Assembly: GCA_964583685.1 (NCBI GenBank)
Contig: CAZOVJ010000001.1
Location: forward strand, 327,632 to 391,631
Direction: 5' to 3'
Source of the DNA: an uncultured Gammaproteobacteria bacterium
GTDB lineage: Bacteria; Patescibacteriota; Microgenomatia; UBA8517
Length of the DNA: 64,000 bases
Position numbers: made by a program. Shown here one piece after another: positions 51,001 through 57,000 of this stretch; the first letter of the stretch is position 1; the number at the start of each line of letters is the position of its first letter.

Positions 51001-54000
51001 TATTCTCCTCATTAAATTCGACTAATTATACAGCATACCTAAATTACAAGCTTATCAAAATCTTTAGAGGGAAGATGTTATACTTAAACAACTACTAAGG
51101 TTCTTAATTATTAGTAAATGAGACCAAAAATTCTCTGGGATAAATTCACTGACAAGTATTCATCGCTTATTTTCCACCCTCAATATTTTATTAAAAAATA
51201 TTCGAACAACTCAATAAAACTGGCAATAAAATACGCCAAGGGAACACTTCTCGATGTTGGCTGTGGCCGAATGCCGTATAAGAATATGTTTCTCCTTTCA
51301 GTAAACAAATACATAGGTTTGGATCACCCAGAAGTAGCAAAACTATACAAAGGGGAAGAAAAACCCGATATCTTAGCAGATGCCACTAAGATTCCTTTAT
51401 CTGACAGTTCCAGTGATACAATCACCTGTTTTCAAGTCCTCGAGCATCTACCTGAACCCCAGGAAGCCCTTAAGGAAATTGCCAGAGTTTTGAAACCCGG
51501 GGGAAAACTCATTCTTTCTACTGTTCAAGCTTACCCATTACATGACGAGCCCCACGATTACTACAGGTATACCAAATACGCCCTAAAAAACCTACTGAAG
51601 AATGTGCATCTTAAAGTTATTAAAGTTGAAACTGAAGGCAATATTTTTACTCTAATCTTTCAAAGCTTTAATATCTATCTCATGCTGATTTTAAAGAGAA
51701 TGATTAATAAAAAGAATACAAAACCAATCGCTATCTTCTTAATCCCCTTTTTTCTTTCTATTACAACCCTTACCAACTTAATTACACTTCCTCTCCTTTC
51801 GATAGATAAAAATTCCAAATTCTCTACAAACCTAACAATTGTCGCCAAGAAAGCAGTCTAGTATACTTTAATCTGTGCTAATTTGGCTAAGAAAAAATAA
51901 AGGCTTTCTCATTATAACCGCTATCTATCTTGTAACTTTCTTTCTCATGCTTCCTCTAAAAGACCAAGCGTTTGATGATGACTTTGCTTATATAAATACC
52001 GTTGAACGTTTCGTCCAAACAGGTAAGTTAACAATCTCTGAGTGGGCAGCCGTCACCATGATCTTTCAAGCCTATTGGGGAGCTTTGTTTGCAAAAATTT
52101 TTGGCTTATCAATAAAATCACTTCACCTCTCAACAATCGTCATGCTCTATTTTGGGTTAGTATTTTTTTACCTCCTTTTAAGGAGATTGGGGCTAAAAGA
52201 GTTAAAAGCAACCGTTTTCACTCTGTTCCTTCTCGGTTCTCCCTGGGTATTCCAGTTTACCTACAGTTTTATGTCTGATATTCCCTATATATCTCTTTTA
52301 ATAATTTCACTCTATTTTTATGTAAAAGGATTACAAACCAGCTTAAATAAATCCTTTATTCTTGGTAGTCTTTTTGCGGGGTTGGCATTTCTGACTAGGC
52401 AAATAGGTGTTGTCATTCCAATTGCTATTTTTTTGGTTATTATCTACAAATGCCTTTCTCACAAAAAAATATTTTGGAAACACTTCGTCTTTTCCCTTGT
52501 CCCTTTTACGATAATCTATATTTTCTACACACTCTGGCACAACAAAGTAGGACCAACAGCACCACAGGTGTCAATGGGTCCTCCGGCATTTAAAAAAGGG
52601 GTCCTACCGTATATTCTACCTTTTAATACCGGGTTCACCGTGATAACCGCCAGACTTTATATACATTTCCTCCAAAGAATCCTTGGCTACCTCAATGTTG
52701 CTATGGTATTTTTACTACCAATTTTTTTCATCTTCAAAATAAAGCTCAAATATGTTGCCAAATTCCTAAAAGAAAATAGAAACTGGATATTTGCCACCGC
52801 AATTCTTGTTATTGGAGCTTATATAATTGATTATTTAAATGGATCAATATGCACCCAAACTTTGCCTTACCGCGTCGTAATGTTTGATTCACTTTTTAAC
52901 TGGAAAATGCTTTGGCCAAGGGTAGCACTAATTTCTTCACCTTTATGGATAGTAATAATTGCAGTTACATTAAAAAAAATAAGCCGGGCTTTTCTAGACG
53001 AAAGAAAAGACAAGCTACTTAAATTCTTCAAAATACTGACTGCCGAATTGATTCTTGTATTGCTGTTGCAGATCAAAGAAATATACCGCCTATCCTTTCC
53101 CTATCAACCAACAAAGTATTTAGGTCTTCTGGGAAATATTCGGGTTTATCTCACGGACATTGTTAGGTCTCCGCTATCTCTTGAAATAATCAAAGAAACG
53201 TGGTTTTTCTTCCTAGTCGCCCTGAGTGGATCTGTTCTGGTAATTTATACTTTATGTACAAGAAAACTTAAACTCAGGACAAATACAAACAATGAATTAT
53301 TACTCCTGGGGCTGATCCTTATTGGTCAGATTTCAATTGCCACAATCTTCCTCTATGGATTCTGGCAGCAGTACATTATTCAGCTCCTCCCAATAATTCT
53401 AATTTGGCTTGCAGTTTTCTTCAGAAATATCAAATTAAGCTACATACGAACAGTTATAGTAGTCATTTTCTTTATTTACTTCTCTCTCCAGGCAATCCGA
53501 AATCGGTACCAATCGATAGGAAGTAGATGGGAACTTCAAACCAAACTGGTGAAAAGTGGTATTTCCCCGCTTAACTTACCTGATGCTTGTTGGGCCTGGA
53601 AACCATATTGGTTCTTTGAAAAAACTTTTGAGGAAGGAATCAAAGAAGCCGGTGGAGATAAATTCAAGGTTACGCCAATAACAAGATGGAACGATCTCAA
53701 AGCAAAAGGACAAACTTATAACATCATTCTCGTCAGCGCCGATACTCTCTTCGCAGAGAACGAAATAATCCTAGAATCCAAACCCTTCTGGATCTTTTGG
53801 CAAAAGCAAAAATTTATAATTACAGAAAAATAAACTACCGAGAGTTACTTCCTTTTGGCACATCGAGCCACAATTTTAAGAGTGCCAGCAATTTCATTTG
53901 CCAAAGGAACTCTCTCGAGAAAAACAAGGGCGGGAACGACAATTGGTAGAAAAGACTTCGGAACCAATGGATGCAAAAACTCGTAAGGCTCAACTTTAAC

Positions 54001-57000
54001 GTCCTTAAAACCAGATTTTTGTAAATCTTTTTTTAGCTGCCAGCGCGAGAACGCCTTTTCATCTGGGGAGCTACGGAAAAAAGCTCTAAAAATCGAGACT
54101 CTCTCTAAAGCTACTTGTGGATTTAAAATATTCGGTTCGCAAAACCAGACAAGGCCATTCGATTTAAGAACACGTTTAGCTTCTTTAAGCGCTTTTTTAG
54201 CATCAACATGGTGTAAAATGCTGTTACCTATAACTATATCAAAGCTATTATCTTTGTAGGGTAAACGACAAATATCTCCTTCCCTAAACTCAGCATTAGA
54301 ATATCTTTTGAGATCTTTTTTAGCCTTACCAATGGCTTTTGGTGAAATGTCAATACCGCAAATGTTCAACTGAGGGCTGACTCTTAAAAGATACTTTGAT
54401 AATATTCCCGTTCCACAACCTATCTCAAGTACTCTTGGTTTCTCTATTCTATTCAATAATGAGAAAATCAGCTGAGCTTTTCTAGTGAATCGGATAGCTG
54501 CGATTGGCCGCAAATTCCCATAGTAAGTTTCGCCAAAGTCTCCAATCAATGCATCGAAATGCTCTCTTTCTGACCGTTTCCAGGCTAAAGTATAACTTCG
54601 CCCAGAAAAATATTTAAACTTAATTGCATCTAGCAAAACCCGCACATATCCTGGCCCTGCTTTAATAATTTTGAAACTACTTTCTCCCATCTCTTCAGTT
54701 CTACCAAACCAAGAGACTGGAATTTCTTTTAATTTATAACCAAGCAAGATTGGATAAATTCCTGTCTCTGCATTAATAGAGAATCCTTTGCCTCTTAATA
54801 AAGGGAGAATCTTATTCACAACTTCATATTTATAGAACTTAAAATTATTTGTCACATCTATATGAGAAGTTCTTAAAAACAATCTCATTAAAAGATGAAA
54901 CACCCGATTAGCTATCTTTTTCTTTAAAGGATAACCTACAAGAGTACTACCCTCTATGTAACGAGATCCTAATAGTCCATCGTACCCCTCCACCCCTCTG
55001 ATCATTTTTTTAATGTCTGATACATTTTTATGAAAATCACAATCTAACATCAAAACATAGTCCGTCTTAGTAGAAACTTTCCTAAGCCCCCTCTTTATTG
55101 CATTACCAACCCCACCATTGCTTCTTCTATGGACAGGTTTCAACTTGGGGTACTTTTTAGTTAACTCCTCGAGCATTTTCCCCGTTCTATCAGTACTACA
55201 GTCATTGACAACAATCATTTCTAAAATATTCCTGGCAAAATTTTTACTGAGAAGTTTAATTATCTTCTCGACGTTTTGCTCCTCGTTATGAGCTGGAATA
55301 ACAACTGATAATTTCATAAATCGCCTCTTAAGCATAAACGGATAATCTGATATCATCAACTGTATCCAGAAATAACTATGTCAAAAACGATTTTAGTTAC
55401 AGGATCCGCTGGTCTAGTTGGCTCTGAAGCCGTTCGGTTCTTCTGCAAGAAAGGGTTCCAGGTTGTAGGAATTGATAATAACCTCCGAAAATACTTTTTT
55501 GGTCCTCAGGCAAGTACAAATGGGAATGCAAGATTGTTGGAACAAGAACACAACAACTATATTCATTTCAACACAGACATTAGAAATGAAAAGCGAATTA
55601 ATCAAATCTTCCGAAAATTTAATTTCTCTCTAATTATCCATGCCGCCGCCCAACCCTCTCATGACTGGGCTGTTAAAGAACCTTTAACAGACTTTACAAT
55701 TAATGCCCTTGGGACACACAATCTTCTAGAGGCCTTTAGGAAGTATTGTCCTAAGGCAGTGTTCATTTTTACCTCCACTAACAGAGTCTATGGAGACAAC
55801 CCTAACAAATTACCATTAAGAGAATTAAAAACCCGCTATGATTTGCCTAAAAAACATAAACTTTATAATGGGGTGGATGAAACTATGAGCCTTTATGCTT
55901 GCATGCACGGCATTTTTGGCGTATCAAAAACTGCGGCTGACTTGATGGTTCAAGAATATGGTACCTATTTCAAACTAAAAACTGGAATTTTCAGAGGAGG
56001 CTGTGTAACTGGCTCCGGACATACACCCGCACAATTACATGGCTTTTTGGCTTATTTAGTATACTGCATAGCGTCTAAAAAAAATTACACCATTATCGGC
56101 TATCAAGGAAAACAAGTGCGAGATAACATCCATGCATTTGATTTAGTCAATGCCTTTTACCACTTTTATAAAAAACCAAGAATTGCGGAGGTATACAATA
56201 TCGGTGGGTCTCGCTACTCCAATACATCTATTCTCGAGGTTATTCCAAAGATTGAAGAACTACTTGGTAAAAAAGCAAAAACCAGATATGAACCCCAAAA
56301 CAGAATAGGCGATCATATCTGGTACATTTCTGACGTCTCAAAATTTCAAAAGCACTATCCTAAATGGAAGTATACTTATAATCTTGATCGTATTCTAACT
56401 GAATTGTGTGAACATGCAAAAGCTTTTAACTAACATCGCCTCATCCTACTAGCTTTTTGAAAAGCTCAGTATATTGCAAACCAATTGCCTTCCAAGAAAA
56501 TTTTTCTAAAACCAAATCTCTACTTTTCCTCCCCATCTTTTCTCGCTGGCTTTTTGACAAGCTAAGTTTAATAATTGCATCGGCAAGTTGCTCAACATTT
56601 TTTTCTCGAGTTAAATAACCATTTTCACCATCACTAACAACTCTCTGGTAACCAGGAAAGTTTGTTGTCACTATTGGCTTCCCACAAGCCATAGCCTCAA
56701 CTACCGAAACCGATTGGTCATCCAAATTCCCCTCCTTATCACGCACCGAGGGAAGAACAAAAATATCACCAAAATTGTAATAATCTACCAACCTCCCATA
56801 ATCAACCCAGCCCAGAAATCTAAAATTAGCAAAGACTCCAAGTTTTTTAGCAAATCTTTCTAAGTCACCTCGCTGGTCACCTTCACCAACAACAATGAAA
56901 GTAACCTTTGGATTGTTTTTCAAGACTTTTGGGGCTGCCGCAACCAGGTACCGAAATCCTTTTTTGGCAACCAATCTGCCTACGCTTAAAACAACTGTAT

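What the first reader, a model, noticed from the sequence alone, without database searches (positions are those of the whole stretch)
53845..55359. Fusion of a DPM1-like GT2 with a SAM methyltransferase domain
A single 490-504-aa polypeptide carries GT2 motifs (VIPAHNEE, NDCSTDRT, LDCDF) followed by a complete class I methyltransferase (LEIGCGTG...DIVIGNSILHH). Such a fusion would couple synthesis of a (lipid-linked) sugar with its methylation. This is consistent with the seven methyltransferases in the locus and implies methylated sugars, as in mycobacterial methylmannose polysaccharides.
Basis: seen in the sequence. Interest (0 to 1): 0.55.

Follow-up and report, generated by a model that had tools for sequence, protein, structure and literature searches.

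The report
Lipid-sugar synthase fused to methyltransferase
The gene is a real, conserved fusion of an enzyme that loads a sugar onto a membrane lipid carrier with a methyltransferase; it belongs to a widespread but unstudied gene cassette that probably delivers a methylated sugar to the outside of the cell.

Summary
Window 53845-55317 (-) encodes one uninterrupted 490-aa protein. Its N-terminal GT2 domain is closest to the polyprenyl-phosphate glycosyltransferases DPMS, ArnC and GtrB. Its C-terminal domain is a complete class I SAM methyltransferase (MT). About 35 independent metagenomic homologs (49-61% identity) keep both domains, so this is not a frameshift artefact.

The fusion is the CPR (Microgenomates/Levyibacteriota-like) form of a cassette found in at least 8 phyla. 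The cassette holds an unusual Tyr-less CDP-tyvelose-2-epimerase-like SDR, this GT2, this specific MT subfamily and a GT-C membrane glycosyltransferase. In Paracoccaceae it also holds a GtrA flippase. The same GT2 and MT are fused in the reverse order (MT-GT2) in Cyanobacteria, Bacteroidota, Chloroflexota, Planctomycetota and others. The GT2 is also fused directly to GT-C domains, and the MT to another SDR.

Best reading: a GtrB-type lipid-P-sugar synthase whose sugar is methylated in the cytoplasm before a GT-C enzyme transfers it outside. The sugar, the methylated atom and the stage of methylation (nucleotide sugar or lipid-linked sugar) are inferred, not shown. The comparison with mycobacterial methylmannose polysaccharides does not fit. 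I rate it a new variant of a known kind, of moderate interest.

The parts
53845..55317 (-). GT2-MT fusion gene (490 aa plus stop). The likely start is the ATG at 55317; the mechanical ORF extends to a TTG at 55359.
   Evidence: Identical to NCBI protein P0001. Homolog N-termini align to MK[IL]S.
54607..55317 (-). GT2 domain (residues 1-237) of the DPMS/ArnC/GtrB class. E12, D39, D92-x-D94, R119, K133 and F179 are invariant and align to PfDPMS Glu12, Asp39, Asp89/Asp91, Arg117, Arg131 and Phe177.
   Evidence: Pfam. PDB phmmer 5mlz 3.4e-18 with alignment. Foldseek top hits 5mlz/9ep0/5mm1, ArnC, GtrB. Invariant columns. Residue roles from PMC5526996.
54589..54606 (-). Centre of the variable inter-domain linker (roughly residues 236-250). 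Low conservation, and a pLDDT dip to about 59.
   Evidence: Alignment. AF2 per-block pLDDT.
53854..54588 (-). Class I SAM methyltransferase domain with its family-specific N-terminal extension (GETYYGNLRP), motif I LEIGCGTG, D323, the NSILHH His pair, the EPNxLNPQ motif and a hydrophobic helix (residues 454-467) inserted before the last strand.
   Evidence: Pfam. Alignment. AF2 secondary structure. AtmM alignment. Hydropathy.
55318..55377 (.). 60-bp divergent intergenic region between the fusion gene and the SDR gene. It holds the fusion gene's Shine-Dalgarno (AAGAGG, 55329-55324 lies just inside the mechanical ORF).
   Evidence: Sequence. ORF coordinates.
55378..56433 (+). Conserved partner: a CDP-tyvelose-2-epimerase-like extended SDR in which the catalytic Tyr is replaced by Phe (GIFGVSK). 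It presumably makes the nucleotide sugar used by the GT2 domain.
   Evidence: PDB 9rl0 4.7e-36 and 1orr 8e-33. 50-70% identical orthologs next to the GT2 ortholog in about 18 loci. Motif conservation.
51875..53833 (+). PMT_2-type GT-C glycosyltransferase (652 aa, about 11 TM), convergent with the fusion gene across an 11-bp gap. Presumed user of the lipid-linked sugar.
   Evidence: Pfam PMT_2 3.8e-10. TM count. 29-37% identical GT-C next to the fusion or GT2 ortholog in L007, L016, L020 and L023.
51118..51861 (+). Stand-alone class I methyltransferase (247 aa) directly upstream of the GT-C gene. It is a different MT subfamily (24 bits to the fused-MT HMM). Its membership in the same pathway is uncertain.

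Best explanation
The ORF encodes a genuine bifunctional enzyme of a GtrA/GtrB/GtrC-type (three-component) extracytoplasmic glycosylation pathway.

Proposed steps: (1) The divergently transcribed Tyr-less TyvE-like SDR prepares a particular nucleotide sugar. (2) The N-terminal GT2 domain, a DPMS/GtrB/ArnC-class enzyme held at the membrane by interface helices and not by TM helices, transfers that sugar to polyprenyl phosphate on the cytoplasmic face. (3) The C-terminal class I MT methylates the sugar with SAM while it is still cytoplasmic. This is most likely on the lipid-linked sugar just made by the neighbouring domain, and possibly on the nucleotide sugar just before transfer. (4) After flipping, the adjacent PMT_2-type GT-C enzyme transfers the methylated sugar to a glycan or protein outside the membrane.

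Rationale for the fusion: SAM is not available outside the cell, so a methyl group on a sugar added by a GT-C enzyme must be put on at the donor stage.

Shown: domain identities, conservation of catalytic and SAM-binding residues, gene and domain linkage across phyla. Inferred: the lipid acceptor, the sugar, the methylated position, the order of steps, and the final acceptor.
For: Both domains sit in one frame.

GT2 half: the best solved relatives by sequence are PfDPMS (3.4e-18) and GtrB. By fold they are DPMS, ArnC and GtrB, all polyprenyl-P glycosyltransferases. The alignment, read with the residue roles in PMC5526996, shows family-invariant E12, D39, D92xD94, R119, K133 and F179 at the positions of Glu12, Asp39, Asp89/91, Arg117, Arg131 and Phe177. 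That paper also reports that TM-less DPMS stays membrane-targeted and active.

Linkage to GT-C: the fusion is convergent with a PMT/PMT_2 GT-C in the window, L001/L002, L030 and L032, and with a 10-TM protein in L031. Homologs of the GT2 that score 175-377 bits to the family HMM (the window's own ArnC-like GT2 scores 74) are fused to PMT_2 (P0150), GT87 (P0148), a 12-TM domain (P0122), a flippase-like LPG_synthase_TM domain (P0201), and MT plus a 10-TM domain (P0130). In Paracoccaceae the cassette is SDR > GtrA (PF04138, 1.6e-18) > MT-GT2 > multi-TM protein.

Linkage GT2-MT: the same GT2 and the same MT subfamily are fused as GT2-MT in CPR and as MT-GT2 in at least 7 other phyla. An HMM built only from reverse-order MTs scores the window's MT at 62.6 bits over nearly its full length, against 18 bits or less for the window's stand-alone MTs.

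MT competence: GxGxG, D323, N365, S366, H369 and H370 are invariant. The His-His pair aligns with that of the glucose O-methyltransferase AtmM and corresponds to the pair around the methyl group in WbdD and RebM (PMC3482155). AtmM and RebM are among the top fold matches.

Precedents: WsaE is an MT-GT fusion that methylates the sugar it adds (PMC2943079). Rv0539/MtxS makes a lipid donor for a methyl-bearing sugar (PMC12088412). An SDR tailors undP-ribofuranose before export (PMC11127046).
Against: There is no biochemical evidence. No NCBIfam equivalog is reached for any component.

The MT subfamily also occurs alone next to a GT-C (L037) and fused to a different SDR in WWE3 (P0055). It may therefore act on the nucleotide sugar and not on the lipid-linked sugar.

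The GT2 ortholog exists without any MT in some Microgenomates and Omnitrophota, so methylation is optional.

PfDPMS Ser135 and Lys178 are replaced by invariant Asn137 and Ser180.

The GT2 half has no TM helix, and the IFH2-equivalent helix is only weakly amphipathic by a crude measure.

The AF2 pTM of 0.55 gives no defined inter-domain geometry.

Reverse-order MT domains lack the acidic beta2 residue and the His pair, so they may differ in chemistry or be inactive.

No GtrA-type flippase was found in the window.
Confidence: 0.55

Rival explanations
1. Same pathway, different order. The MT domain methylates the nucleotide sugar, the product of the SDR, before the GT2 domain transfers it to polyprenyl phosphate. 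The fusion would then channel a methylated nucleotide sugar into the transferase.
For: The same MT subfamily (197 bits, full length) is fused to an SDR nucleotide-sugar-type enzyme in WWE3 protein P0055. It is also abundant as a stand-alone protein of about 245 aa. SDR orthologs in Azospirillum and Deinococcus sit with ordinary cytoplasmic GTs, which shows the SDR works at the nucleotide-sugar level.
Against: The MT carries a strongly hydrophobic helix (residues 454-467, mean Eisenberg hydrophobicity 0.67) inserted before the last strand, which suits a membrane-embedded substrate. The stand-alone MT in L037 is directly followed by a GT-C, with no SDR or GT2 beside it. Top fold matches act on sugars already attached to an aglycone (AtmM, RebM) and not on nucleotide sugars.
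Confidence: 0.22
2. The MT-like domain does not methylate the sugar. It would serve as a membrane-association, oligomerisation or SAM-sensing module that replaces the TM domain of GtrB/ArnC/DPMS, or it would methylate an unrelated substrate.
For: It sits exactly where GtrB, ArnC and PfDPMS carry their TM helices. Reverse-order homologs lack the acidic beta2 residue and the His-His pair. GT2-only orthologs exist.
Against: In the window's clade every SAM-binding and putative catalytic residue is invariant across 23 sequences at 49-61% identity. The domain is a strong Pfam MT match (2e-25). TM-less DPMS needs no extra anchor (PMC5526996). The subfamily is widespread as a free-standing enzyme.
Confidence: 0.12
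3. The GT2 domain is an ordinary Leloir transferase that extends a glycan and does not load polyprenyl phosphate. The MT would cap the added residue, as in the chain-terminating enzyme WsaE.
For: WsaE is a characterised MT-GT fusion that works this way (PMC2943079). PF00535 is a generic family. The GT2 half has no TM helices.
Against: The top sequence and fold matches are all polyprenyl-P glycosyltransferases. The phosphate-binding Arg117/Arg131 equivalents are invariant. Homologs are fused to GT-C domains and a flippase-like domain, and sit in a GtrA-containing cassette. There is no Wzm/Wzt ABC transporter in the window; the only ABC ATPase is next to SufBD.
Confidence: 0.08
4. Artefact: a frameshift, an assembly chimera or a read-through joined two separate genes.
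For: The Levyibacteriota ortholog L003 is split across three frames in its MAG, so errors or decay do occur in this gene family.
Against: The window ORF is continuous. About 35 independent clusters have the same single-ORF layout, and the junction is flanked by conserved sequence.
Confidence: 0.01

Closest known systems
GtrA/GtrB/GtrC-type three-component glycosylation systems (also CsbB/GtcA/YfhO, GacI/GacL, PgfS/PgfM; general scheme in PMC11127046 and PMC13390465)
   Same: A GT2 that charges polyprenyl phosphate with one sugar, a flippase, and a GT-C enzyme that transfers the sugar outside the membrane. GtrB is among the top fold hits. GtrA lies inside the cassette in Paracoccaceae. As with gtrC, the GT-C partner is conserved in position but diverges in sequence.
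   Different: The GT2 has no TM helices and is fused to a SAM methyltransferase. A dedicated Tyr-less SDR is part of the cassette. No GtrA was detected in the window itself.
Dolichol-phosphate mannose synthase (PfDPMS, DPM1) with PMT-family GT-C enzymes; actinobacterial Ppm1/Pmt
   Same: Best solved sequence and fold relative. The DXD and the Glu12, Asp39, Arg117, Arg131 and Phe177 equivalents are conserved. The partner GT-C enzymes are PMT/PMT_2 family. From my own knowledge, M. tuberculosis Ppm1 is likewise a DPM1-like synthase fused to a second domain that is a separate protein in other species, and human DPM1 lacks a TM segment.
   Different: Ser135 and Lys178 of PfDPMS are Asn and Ser here, and the metal-ligand Gln93 position is variable, so the sugar is probably not mannose from GDP-mannose. 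The fusion partner is a methyltransferase.
ArnA/ArnB/ArnC/ArnD/ArnT pathway (lipid A aminoarabinose)
   Same: An SDR-modified nucleotide sugar, then a GT2 (ArnC, a top fold hit) making undecaprenyl-P-sugar. From my own knowledge, ArnD then tailors the lipid-linked sugar in the cytoplasm, and a PMT_2-like GT-C (ArnT) acts last. A DegT aminotransferase (57688-58815) is nearby in the window.
   Different: The tailoring step would be methylation, not formylation and deformylation. The SDR is TyvE-like and not ArnA-like. DegT is not a conserved cassette member.
MtxS (Rv0539)/Rv0541c route for the methylthioxylose cap of mycobacterial lipoarabinomannan
   Same: A GT2 makes a lipid-linked donor of a methyl-bearing sugar for extracytoplasmic transfer (PMC12088412).
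   Different: From my own knowledge, the methylthio group there comes with the precursor and is not added by a fused SAM methyltransferase. There is no domain fusion.
WsaE of Geobacillus stearothermophilus; WbdD of E. coli O9a
   Same: Characterised glycan enzymes in which an MT domain is fused to the enzyme that makes its substrate (PMC2943079; PMC3482155). The His-His pair near the methyl group is shared with WbdD and RebM.
   Different: Those enzymes cap growing undecaprenyl-PP-linked polymers exported by ABC transporters. Here the GT domain belongs to the polyprenyl-P monosaccharide synthase class and works with GT-C enzymes.
AglP of Haloferax volcanii
   Same: A SAM-dependent methyltransferase that takes part in assembling a dolichol-phosphate-linked glycan before transfer (PMC3871713).
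   Different: It is a separate protein that, from my own knowledge, acts on a lipid-linked oligosaccharide for N-glycosylation by AglB. It does not act on a monosaccharide donor for a PMT_2-type GT-C.

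Membership tests
Polyisoprenyl-phosphate glycosyltransferases of GT2 (DPMS/DPM1, GtrB, ArnC) | GT-A fold with a DXD metal/donor motif and a base-binding Asp | tested here: met
   PF00535 7e-26. D39 and D92-C-D94 are invariant in 23 homologs and align to PfDPMS Asp39 and Asp89/Asp91.
Polyisoprenyl-phosphate glycosyltransferases of GT2 (DPMS/DPM1, GtrB, ArnC) | Closest characterised relatives are PI-GTs and not processive or Leloir GT2s | tested here: met
   phmmer against PDB: 5mlz 3.4e-18, then GtrB. Foldseek ranks 1-4, 8, 10 and 13 are DPMS, ArnC and GtrB. NCBIfam partial hits are to PgfS, AglJ and Dol-P hexose transferase, all below their cut-offs.
Polyisoprenyl-phosphate glycosyltransferases of GT2 (DPMS/DPM1, GtrB, ArnC) | Residues that position the lipid phosphate (PfDPMS Arg117, Arg131, Ser135) | tested here: inconclusive
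   R119 (matches Arg117) and K133 (matches Arg131) are invariant. Ser135 is replaced by invariant N137, followed by invariant R138 (roles from PMC5526996).
Polyisoprenyl-phosphate glycosyltransferases of GT2 (DPMS/DPM1, GtrB, ArnC) | Amphipathic interface helices flanking the acceptor site | tested here: inconclusive
   AF2 predicts helices at 131-148 and 217-237. The 18-residue windows starting at 133-134 are among the most amphipathic in the protein (muH 0.63-0.66), but 217-237 reaches only 0.34 on a crude Eisenberg measure.
Polyisoprenyl-phosphate glycosyltransferases of GT2 (DPMS/DPM1, GtrB, ArnC) | C-terminal transmembrane anchor | tested here: not met
   There is no TM segment after the GT2 domain; the MT domain takes that position. 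This is not disqualifying: PfDPMS lacking residues 230-352 stays membrane-targeted and active (PMC5526996).
Polyisoprenyl-phosphate glycosyltransferases of GT2 (DPMS/DPM1, GtrB, ArnC) | Functional partnership with a GT-C enzyme that uses the lipid-P-sugar | tested here: met
   An adjacent PMT/PMT_2 gene in 4 of 5 same-order loci, and a 10-TM protein in the fifth. GT2 homologs are fused to PMT_2, GT87 and 10-12-TM domains.
Polyisoprenyl-phosphate glycosyltransferases of GT2 (DPMS/DPM1, GtrB, ArnC) | Formation of a polyprenyl-P-monosaccharide | not testable with these tools
   Needs an enzyme assay.
Class I SAM-dependent methyltransferases (Methyltransf_11; RebM/AtmM-like small-molecule O-MTs) | Rossmann-like fold with GxGxG motif I and an acidic residue after beta2 | tested here: met
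   PF08241 2e-25. G300-C-G302-T-G304 and D323 are invariant. AF2 gives the alternating strand/helix pattern, with pLDDT mostly 86-95.
Class I SAM-dependent methyltransferases (Methyltransf_11; RebM/AtmM-like small-molecule O-MTs) | His-His pair after beta4 next to the transferred methyl group | tested here: met
   H369-H370 are invariant. They align to the LHH of AtmM, PDB 6uv6, D-glucose O-methyltransferase. The equivalent pair is described for WbdD and RebM in PMC3482155. The catalytic role in RebM is from my own recollection; that paper is not held.
Class I SAM-dependent methyltransferases (Methyltransf_11; RebM/AtmM-like small-molecule O-MTs) | Methylation of a sugar hydroxyl | not testable with these tools
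   Top fold hits also include N-, C- and phosphate-directed MTs. Whether the target is O or N is open.
Three-component (GtrA/GtrB/GtrC-type) extracytoplasmic glycosylation system | PI-GT plus a GT-C encoded together | tested here: met
   Window 53845-55317 and 51875-53833 are convergent across an 11-bp gap. The arrangement is conserved across phyla.
Three-component (GtrA/GtrB/GtrC-type) extracytoplasmic glycosylation system | Dedicated lipid-P-sugar flippase (GtrA family or MATE/MOP) | tested here: inconclusive
   GtrA (PF04138) lies inside the cassette in L014 and L026. In the window the two small multi-TM ORFs (20378-20773, 63499-63960) have no Pfam hit. Two Wzx-like MOP proteins exist at 7464-8771 and 62249-63508.
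   The GT2 is of the lipid-phosphate-charging class. It is linked to GT-C enzymes by adjacency and by fusion.
WsaE/WbdD-type chain-terminating MT fusions | MT fused to polymer-elongating GT or kinase domains, working with a Wzm/Wzt ABC exporter | tested here: not met
   The GT domain is PI-GT-like. There is no Wzm/Wzt in the window; the only ABC ATPase (40911-41636) sits next to SufBD.

The most novel reading that the evidence does not exclude
The cassette (Tyr-less TyvE-like SDR, this GT2, this MT subfamily, a GT-C, and sometimes GtrA) would be a previously undescribed pathway found across many phyla. It would build a polyprenyl-phosphate-linked methylated monosaccharide, possibly of a rare sugar, as donor for extracytoplasmic glycosylation. 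Methylation would take place on the lipid-linked monosaccharide itself. That would be the first example of SAM-dependent tailoring at this stage. It would also explain in general how methyl groups reach sugars that are added outside the membrane.
Probability: 0.33. Interest if true: 0.65.

Novelty: new variant of a known kind. Interest (0 to 1): 0.5.

Why it matters
Three-component systems are the general way bacteria decorate surface glycans and proteins outside the membrane. Known tailoring of their lipid-linked donors is limited to epimerisation, deformylation and deacetylation. A methyltransferase physically fused to the donor synthase, in both domain orders and even in a triple fusion with a GT-C-like membrane domain, points to methylation at the donor stage as a further, widespread tailoring step.

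The cassette occurs in cultured organisms: Anabaena subtropica FACHB-260, Telluribacter humicola KCTC 42819, Rhodocytophaga aerolata KACC 12507, Aquiflexum sp. TKW24L and Alitabrizicola rongguiensis J26. The hypothesis is therefore directly testable.

For CPR bacteria, which cannot be grown alone, the locus hints at a heavily methylated, GT-C-built surface glycan. The conserved Tyr-less SDR is an enzymological puzzle in its own right.

Tried and rejected
- Exact-sequence lookup of the window protein's contig found nothing. The organism was therefore inferred only from the nearest relatives, Levyibacteriota/Microgenomates.
- Rfam found no RNA family in the window.
- NCBIfam gave no equivalog-level match for the fusion, the SDRs, the GT-C enzymes or the MTs, so no sugar could be assigned.
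- I considered that the conserved SDR might epimerise the lipid-linked sugar, like C. youngae ORF13 or DprE1/E2 (PMC11127046). I set this aside because 55-57% identical orthologs sit in Azospirillum and Deinococcus polysaccharide clusters with ordinary cytoplasmic GTs and no GT2-MT or adjacent GT-C. This argument is weak, not conclusive.
- I tested whether the SDR half of the WWE3 SDR-MT fusion (P0055) is the same Tyr-less type. It is not (23% identity over 146 residues).
- The second SDR that accompanies the cassette in L001, L030 and L032 is also generic.
- The RebM structure paper could not be read, so the catalytic role of the His pair rests on the WbdD paper and my own recollection.
- Six literature searches aimed at finding any description of this fusion or its organismal context (with follow-up reading) found none in the held library. 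This is not proof of absence.
- The AF2 model gives good domains but no reliable inter-domain geometry (pTM 0.55), so substrate channelling between the active sites could not be assessed.
- Frameshift or chimera was rejected.

Full report
**1. Observation.** The mechanical ORF 53845..55359 (-) is present and uninterrupted: 504 aa from a TTG. Pfam places Glycos_transf_2 at residues 18-184 (E 7e-26) and Methyltransf_11 at 311-406 (E 2e-25) of that 504-aa form, in one frame. The likely start is the ATG at 55317. An AAGAGG Shine-Dalgarno lies 6 nt upstream. The 490-aa product is identical to an NCBI gene call, P0001, and all homologs begin at the equivalent MK[IL]S. About 35 protein clusters from independent metagenomes share the full GT2-MT layout at 49-61% identity and 96-98% coverage. 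In a 23-sequence alignment there are about 100 invariant columns spread over both domains, separated by a short variable linker. A frameshift or chimera is therefore excluded for practical purposes.

**2. The two domains.**

GT2 half:
- The best solved relative by sequence is Pyrococcus furiosus dolichol-phosphate mannose synthase (5mlz, 3.4e-18), with GtrB also matched.
- An AlphaFold2 model (mean pLDDT 85, pTM 0.55) finds DPMS, ArnC and GtrB as its best GT matches. All three charge a polyprenyl phosphate with one sugar.
- I read the alignment against the residue roles in the DPMS structure paper (PMC5526996). The family-invariant E12, D39, D92-x-D94, R119, K133 and F179 occupy the positions of Glu12, Asp39, Asp89/Asp91, Arg117, Arg131 and Phe177.
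- Ser135 and Lys178 are replaced by invariant Asn137 and Ser180, so the donor sugar is probably not GDP-mannose.
- The GT2 half has no TM segment. The same paper reports that DPMS without its TM domain remains membrane-targeted and active.

MT half:
- It is a complete class I fold with invariant GxGxG (G300-G304), D323, N365, S366 and H369-H370.
- The His-His pair aligns with that of AtmM, a glucose O-methyltransferase. It corresponds to the pair that surrounds the methyl group in WbdD and RebM (PMC3482155).
- AtmM and RebM are among the top fold hits, alongside N-, C- and other O-methyltransferases.
- The domain has a family-specific N-terminal extension (GETYYGNLRP), an EPNxLNPQ motif, and a strongly hydrophobic helix (454-467) inserted before the last strand.

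**3. Context in the window.** The fusion gene is convergent (11-bp gap) with a PMT_2-type GT-C of 652 aa and about 11 TM segments (51875-53833). It is divergent (60-bp gap) from an SDR (55378-56433). The whole 64-kb window is a glycan island:
- six PMT_2 GT-C enzymes and one YfhO;
- about nine GT2 and three GT4 enzymes;
- two Wzx-like flippases;
- six class I MT domains and two B12-radical-SAM enzymes;
- a carbamoyltransferase, a DegT aminotransferase and SDR dehydratases.

Base composition (about 37% GC) and the nearest relatives, Levyibacteriota and Microgenomates MAGs, indicate a CPR/Patescibacteria genome.

**4. Comparative genomics.** I scanned one genome per species and re-analysed the loci with HMMs built from the two halves of the family alignment. 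The orthologous GT2 (200-400 bits) occurs in three architectures:

| Architecture | Where |
|---|---|
| GT2-MT | The window and its closest CPR relatives |
| GT2 alone (~250 aa) | Other Microgenomates, Omnitrophota and some unclassified MAGs |
| MT-GT2 (reverse order) | Aquiflexum, Telluribacter, Rhodocytophaga (Bacteroidota), Anabaena subtropica and other cyanobacteria, Anaerolineae, Peribacteria, Planctomycetota, Paracoccaceae and Opitutaceae |

The MT domains of the two orders align end to end, including the N-terminal extension, the LKPGG...F-E-[PS]-N motif and the C-terminal LE..P....AG[TS] tail. An HMM built only from reverse-order MT domains scores the window's MT at 62.6 bits over positions 19-242 of 262. 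The window's five stand-alone MTs score 18 bits or less and match only the Rossmann core. So the same GT2 and the same MT subfamily are joined in both orders. This is classical evidence for a functional link. The reverse-order MTs, however, lack the acidic beta2 residue and the His-His pair.

**5. The cassette.** The SDR next to the fusion is 50-70% identical to an SDR adjacent to the GT2 ortholog in about 18 loci from many phyla. Typical same-strand operons:
- SDR > MT-GT2 > 587-660-aa protein with 9-10 TM segments (Anaerolineae L013, L019);
- 508-aa 10-TM protein > SDR > MT-GT2 > 531-aa 8-TM protein > 571-aa 8-TM protein, the last 33% identical to the window's GT-C (Anabaena subtropica L020);
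- SDR > small 4-TM protein > MT-GT2 > 7-8-TM protein (Paracoccaceae L014, L026).

The small protein is a GtrA-family flippase (PF04138, 1.6e-18 and 3.9e-15). That completes a GtrA/GtrB/GtrC-type system. In the same-order clade the fusion is convergent with a PMT/PMT_2 GT-C in the window, L001/L002, L030 and L032, and with an unannotated 10-TM protein in L031. As with gtrC genes, the GT-C partner keeps its position but diverges in sequence.

**6. Further fusions.** An exhaustive search of 1.84 billion representatives gave 202 proteins at E <= 1e-30. Pfam, HMM and hydropathy analysis of the long ones shows:
- P0150: GT2 (212 bits) + PMT_2;
- P0148: GT87 + GT2 (241 bits);
- P0122: GT2 (377 bits, 59% identity) + a 12-TM domain;
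- P0130: MT + GT2 + a 10-TM domain in one chain;
- P0201: GT2 + the flippase-like LPG_synthase_TM domain;
- P0123: MT-GT2-MT.

For scale, the window's own ArnC/GtrB-like GT2 (47931-48878) scores 74 bits to the same HMM.

The MT subfamily also occurs in two other forms. It is widespread as a free ~245-aa protein, in L037 directly followed by a 9-TM PMT_2-like protein. In candidate division WWE3 it is fused behind a different SDR, in an operon with a GT2, another SDR and three 8-11-TM proteins.

**7. Mechanism.** These data make it very likely that the GT2 domain is the lipid-P-sugar synthase of a three-component system, and that the MT serves the same pathway. A cytoplasmic, SAM-dependent enzyme can only act before the donor is flipped. 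A methyl group on a sugar delivered by a GT-C enzyme must therefore be installed on the nucleotide sugar or on the polyprenyl-P-sugar.
- Favouring the lipid-linked sugar: fusion to the synthase, the hydrophobic helix in the MT, and the MT-GT-C adjacency without a GT2.
- Keeping the nucleotide-sugar alternative open: the SDR-MT fusion and the free-standing forms.

I put the overall model at 0.55 and the nucleotide-sugar variant at 0.22. The other rivals are lower: a non-catalytic or unrelated role for the MT domain (0.12), a WsaE-like capping transferase (0.08), and artefact (0.01). The sugar is unknown. No NCBIfam equivalog is reached by any component.

**8. The SDR.** Its best solved relatives are CDP-tyvelose 2-epimerases (9rl0 4.7e-36, 1orr). 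It keeps the T-N-K segment that PMC13098431 highlights. The catalytic Tyr of YxxxK is Phe in all 18 orthologs examined, within a conserved H-S-[ILV]-F-G-[AV]-S-K motif. Orthologs at 55-57% identity lie in polysaccharide clusters on Azospirillum brasilense and Deinococcus plasmids, with ordinary cytoplasmic GTs. That suggests it acts on a nucleotide sugar.

**9. Comparison with known systems and novelty.** The logic is that of Gtr, Arn and DPMS/PMT systems, and of the recently generalised three-component pathways with auxiliary epimerases (PMC11127046).
- MT-GT fusions that methylate their own product are known (WsaE, PMC2943079).
- A GT2-made lipid donor for a methyl-bearing sugar is known (MtxS, PMC12088412).
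- A methyltransferase working on a dolichol-phosphate-linked glycan is known (AglP, PMC3871713).
- I found no description of a polyprenyl-P-monosaccharide synthase coupled to a methyltransferase, nor of this cassette. The search covers only the held library.

I classify the finding as a new variant of a known kind. Interest is moderate (0.5). The architecture itself will not surprise a glycobiologist. The breadth of the cassette, the domain permutation, the triple fusion and the Tyr-less SDR together define a concrete hypothesis that can be tested in cultured organisms.

Noticed in passing
window 55378-56433 (+); orthologs in L001, L004, L006, L007, L011, L013-L016, L018-L020, L022, L023, L025, L026: The CDP-tyvelose-2-epimerase-like SDR lacks the canonical catalytic Tyr. 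All 18 orthologs across phyla have H-S-[ILV]-F-G-[AV]-S-K while keeping the T-N-K segment. This looks like a distinct, uncharacterised extended-SDR subfamily. Orthologs at 55-57% identity also lie on Azospirillum brasilense and Deinococcus plasmids.
   Followed up: partly
window 1-64000: The entire window is one glycan-biosynthesis island. It holds six PMT_2 GT-C genes (23-1411, 3337-4725, 15724-17124, 35193-37289, 48895-51012, 51875-53833) and a YfhO GT-C (13384-15747). It also holds about nine GT2 and three GT4 genes and two Wzx-like genes (7464-8771, 62249-63508). That is an unusually high density of GT-C enzymes for a small-genome CPR-like organism.
   Followed up: partly
window 27780-28901, 29959-31410, 39364-44768: Two B12-binding radical-SAM enzymes (possible C-methylases) and a third radical-SAM enzyme are embedded in the glycan island. 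They sit with SufC/SufBD Fe-S assembly genes (40911-42709), an FAD/NAD oxidoreductase (44064-44768) and an amine oxidase (37273-38625). An Azospirillum SDR ortholog also sits next to a radical-SAM gene.
   Followed up: no
window 47415-47930 (+) and 59781-60347 (-); L035 5791-6258; L036 4966-5433: DUF5667 proteins occur twice in the island. One also lies beside the WWE3 SDR-MT fusion operon. This is a recurrent, unexplained association of DUF5667 with these CPR glycan loci.
   Followed up: no
window 47931-48878 (+) and 48895-51012 (-); L006 1940-2860 and 2-1933: A second candidate lipid-P-sugar synthase/GT-C pair. An ArnC/GtrB-like GT2 with two C-terminal TM helices (NCBIfam ArnC model, 171 bits, below cut-off) lies next to a PMT_2 GT-C. 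The same pair is conserved in L006 at 64% and 36% identity.
   Followed up: partly
window 18298-20007 (-); L031 3228-4988: A carbamoyltransferase (NodU/CmcH type) is in the island, and another lies near the fusion in relative L031. This suggests carbamoylated as well as methylated sugars.
   Followed up: no
window 23812-25845 (-) and 31553-34219 (-): Two large proteins with F5/8 type C (discoidin, carbohydrate-binding) domains sit inside the glycan island. They could be acceptors or lectin-like surface proteins.
   Followed up: no
window 8738-11344, 11560-13470, 17036-18316, 20766-23861, 39364-40914: Five large ORFs (426-1031 aa) have no Pfam match at E <= 1e-5.
   Followed up: no
L011-L027 (reverse-order MT-GT2 proteins): The MT domain of the reverse-order fusions lacks the acidic residue after beta2 (ITAVTF against GIDIS). 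It has [AS]-[ML]-D-L-L-D where the window clade has N-S-I-L-H-H. These domains may use different chemistry or be inactive.
   Followed up: partly
L003 3889-5332: The Levyibacteriota ortholog of the fusion, the closest hit in the species-representative genomes at 58% identity, is split over three reading frames. This is either MAG assembly error or a decaying gene.
   Followed up: no
L001 5615-6736, L030 1091-2218, L032 11541-12662, L033 7874-8953: A second generic SDR of about 360-375 aa is repeatedly adjacent to the Tyr-less SDR, including in Azospirillum. This suggests a two-SDR nucleotide-sugar pathway. There is no equivalog match.
   Followed up: partly
window 1-64000: GC skew is negative in nearly every 2-kb bin (cumulative -3.67), consistent with most genes lying on the minus strand. 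No switch is seen within the window.
   Followed up: no
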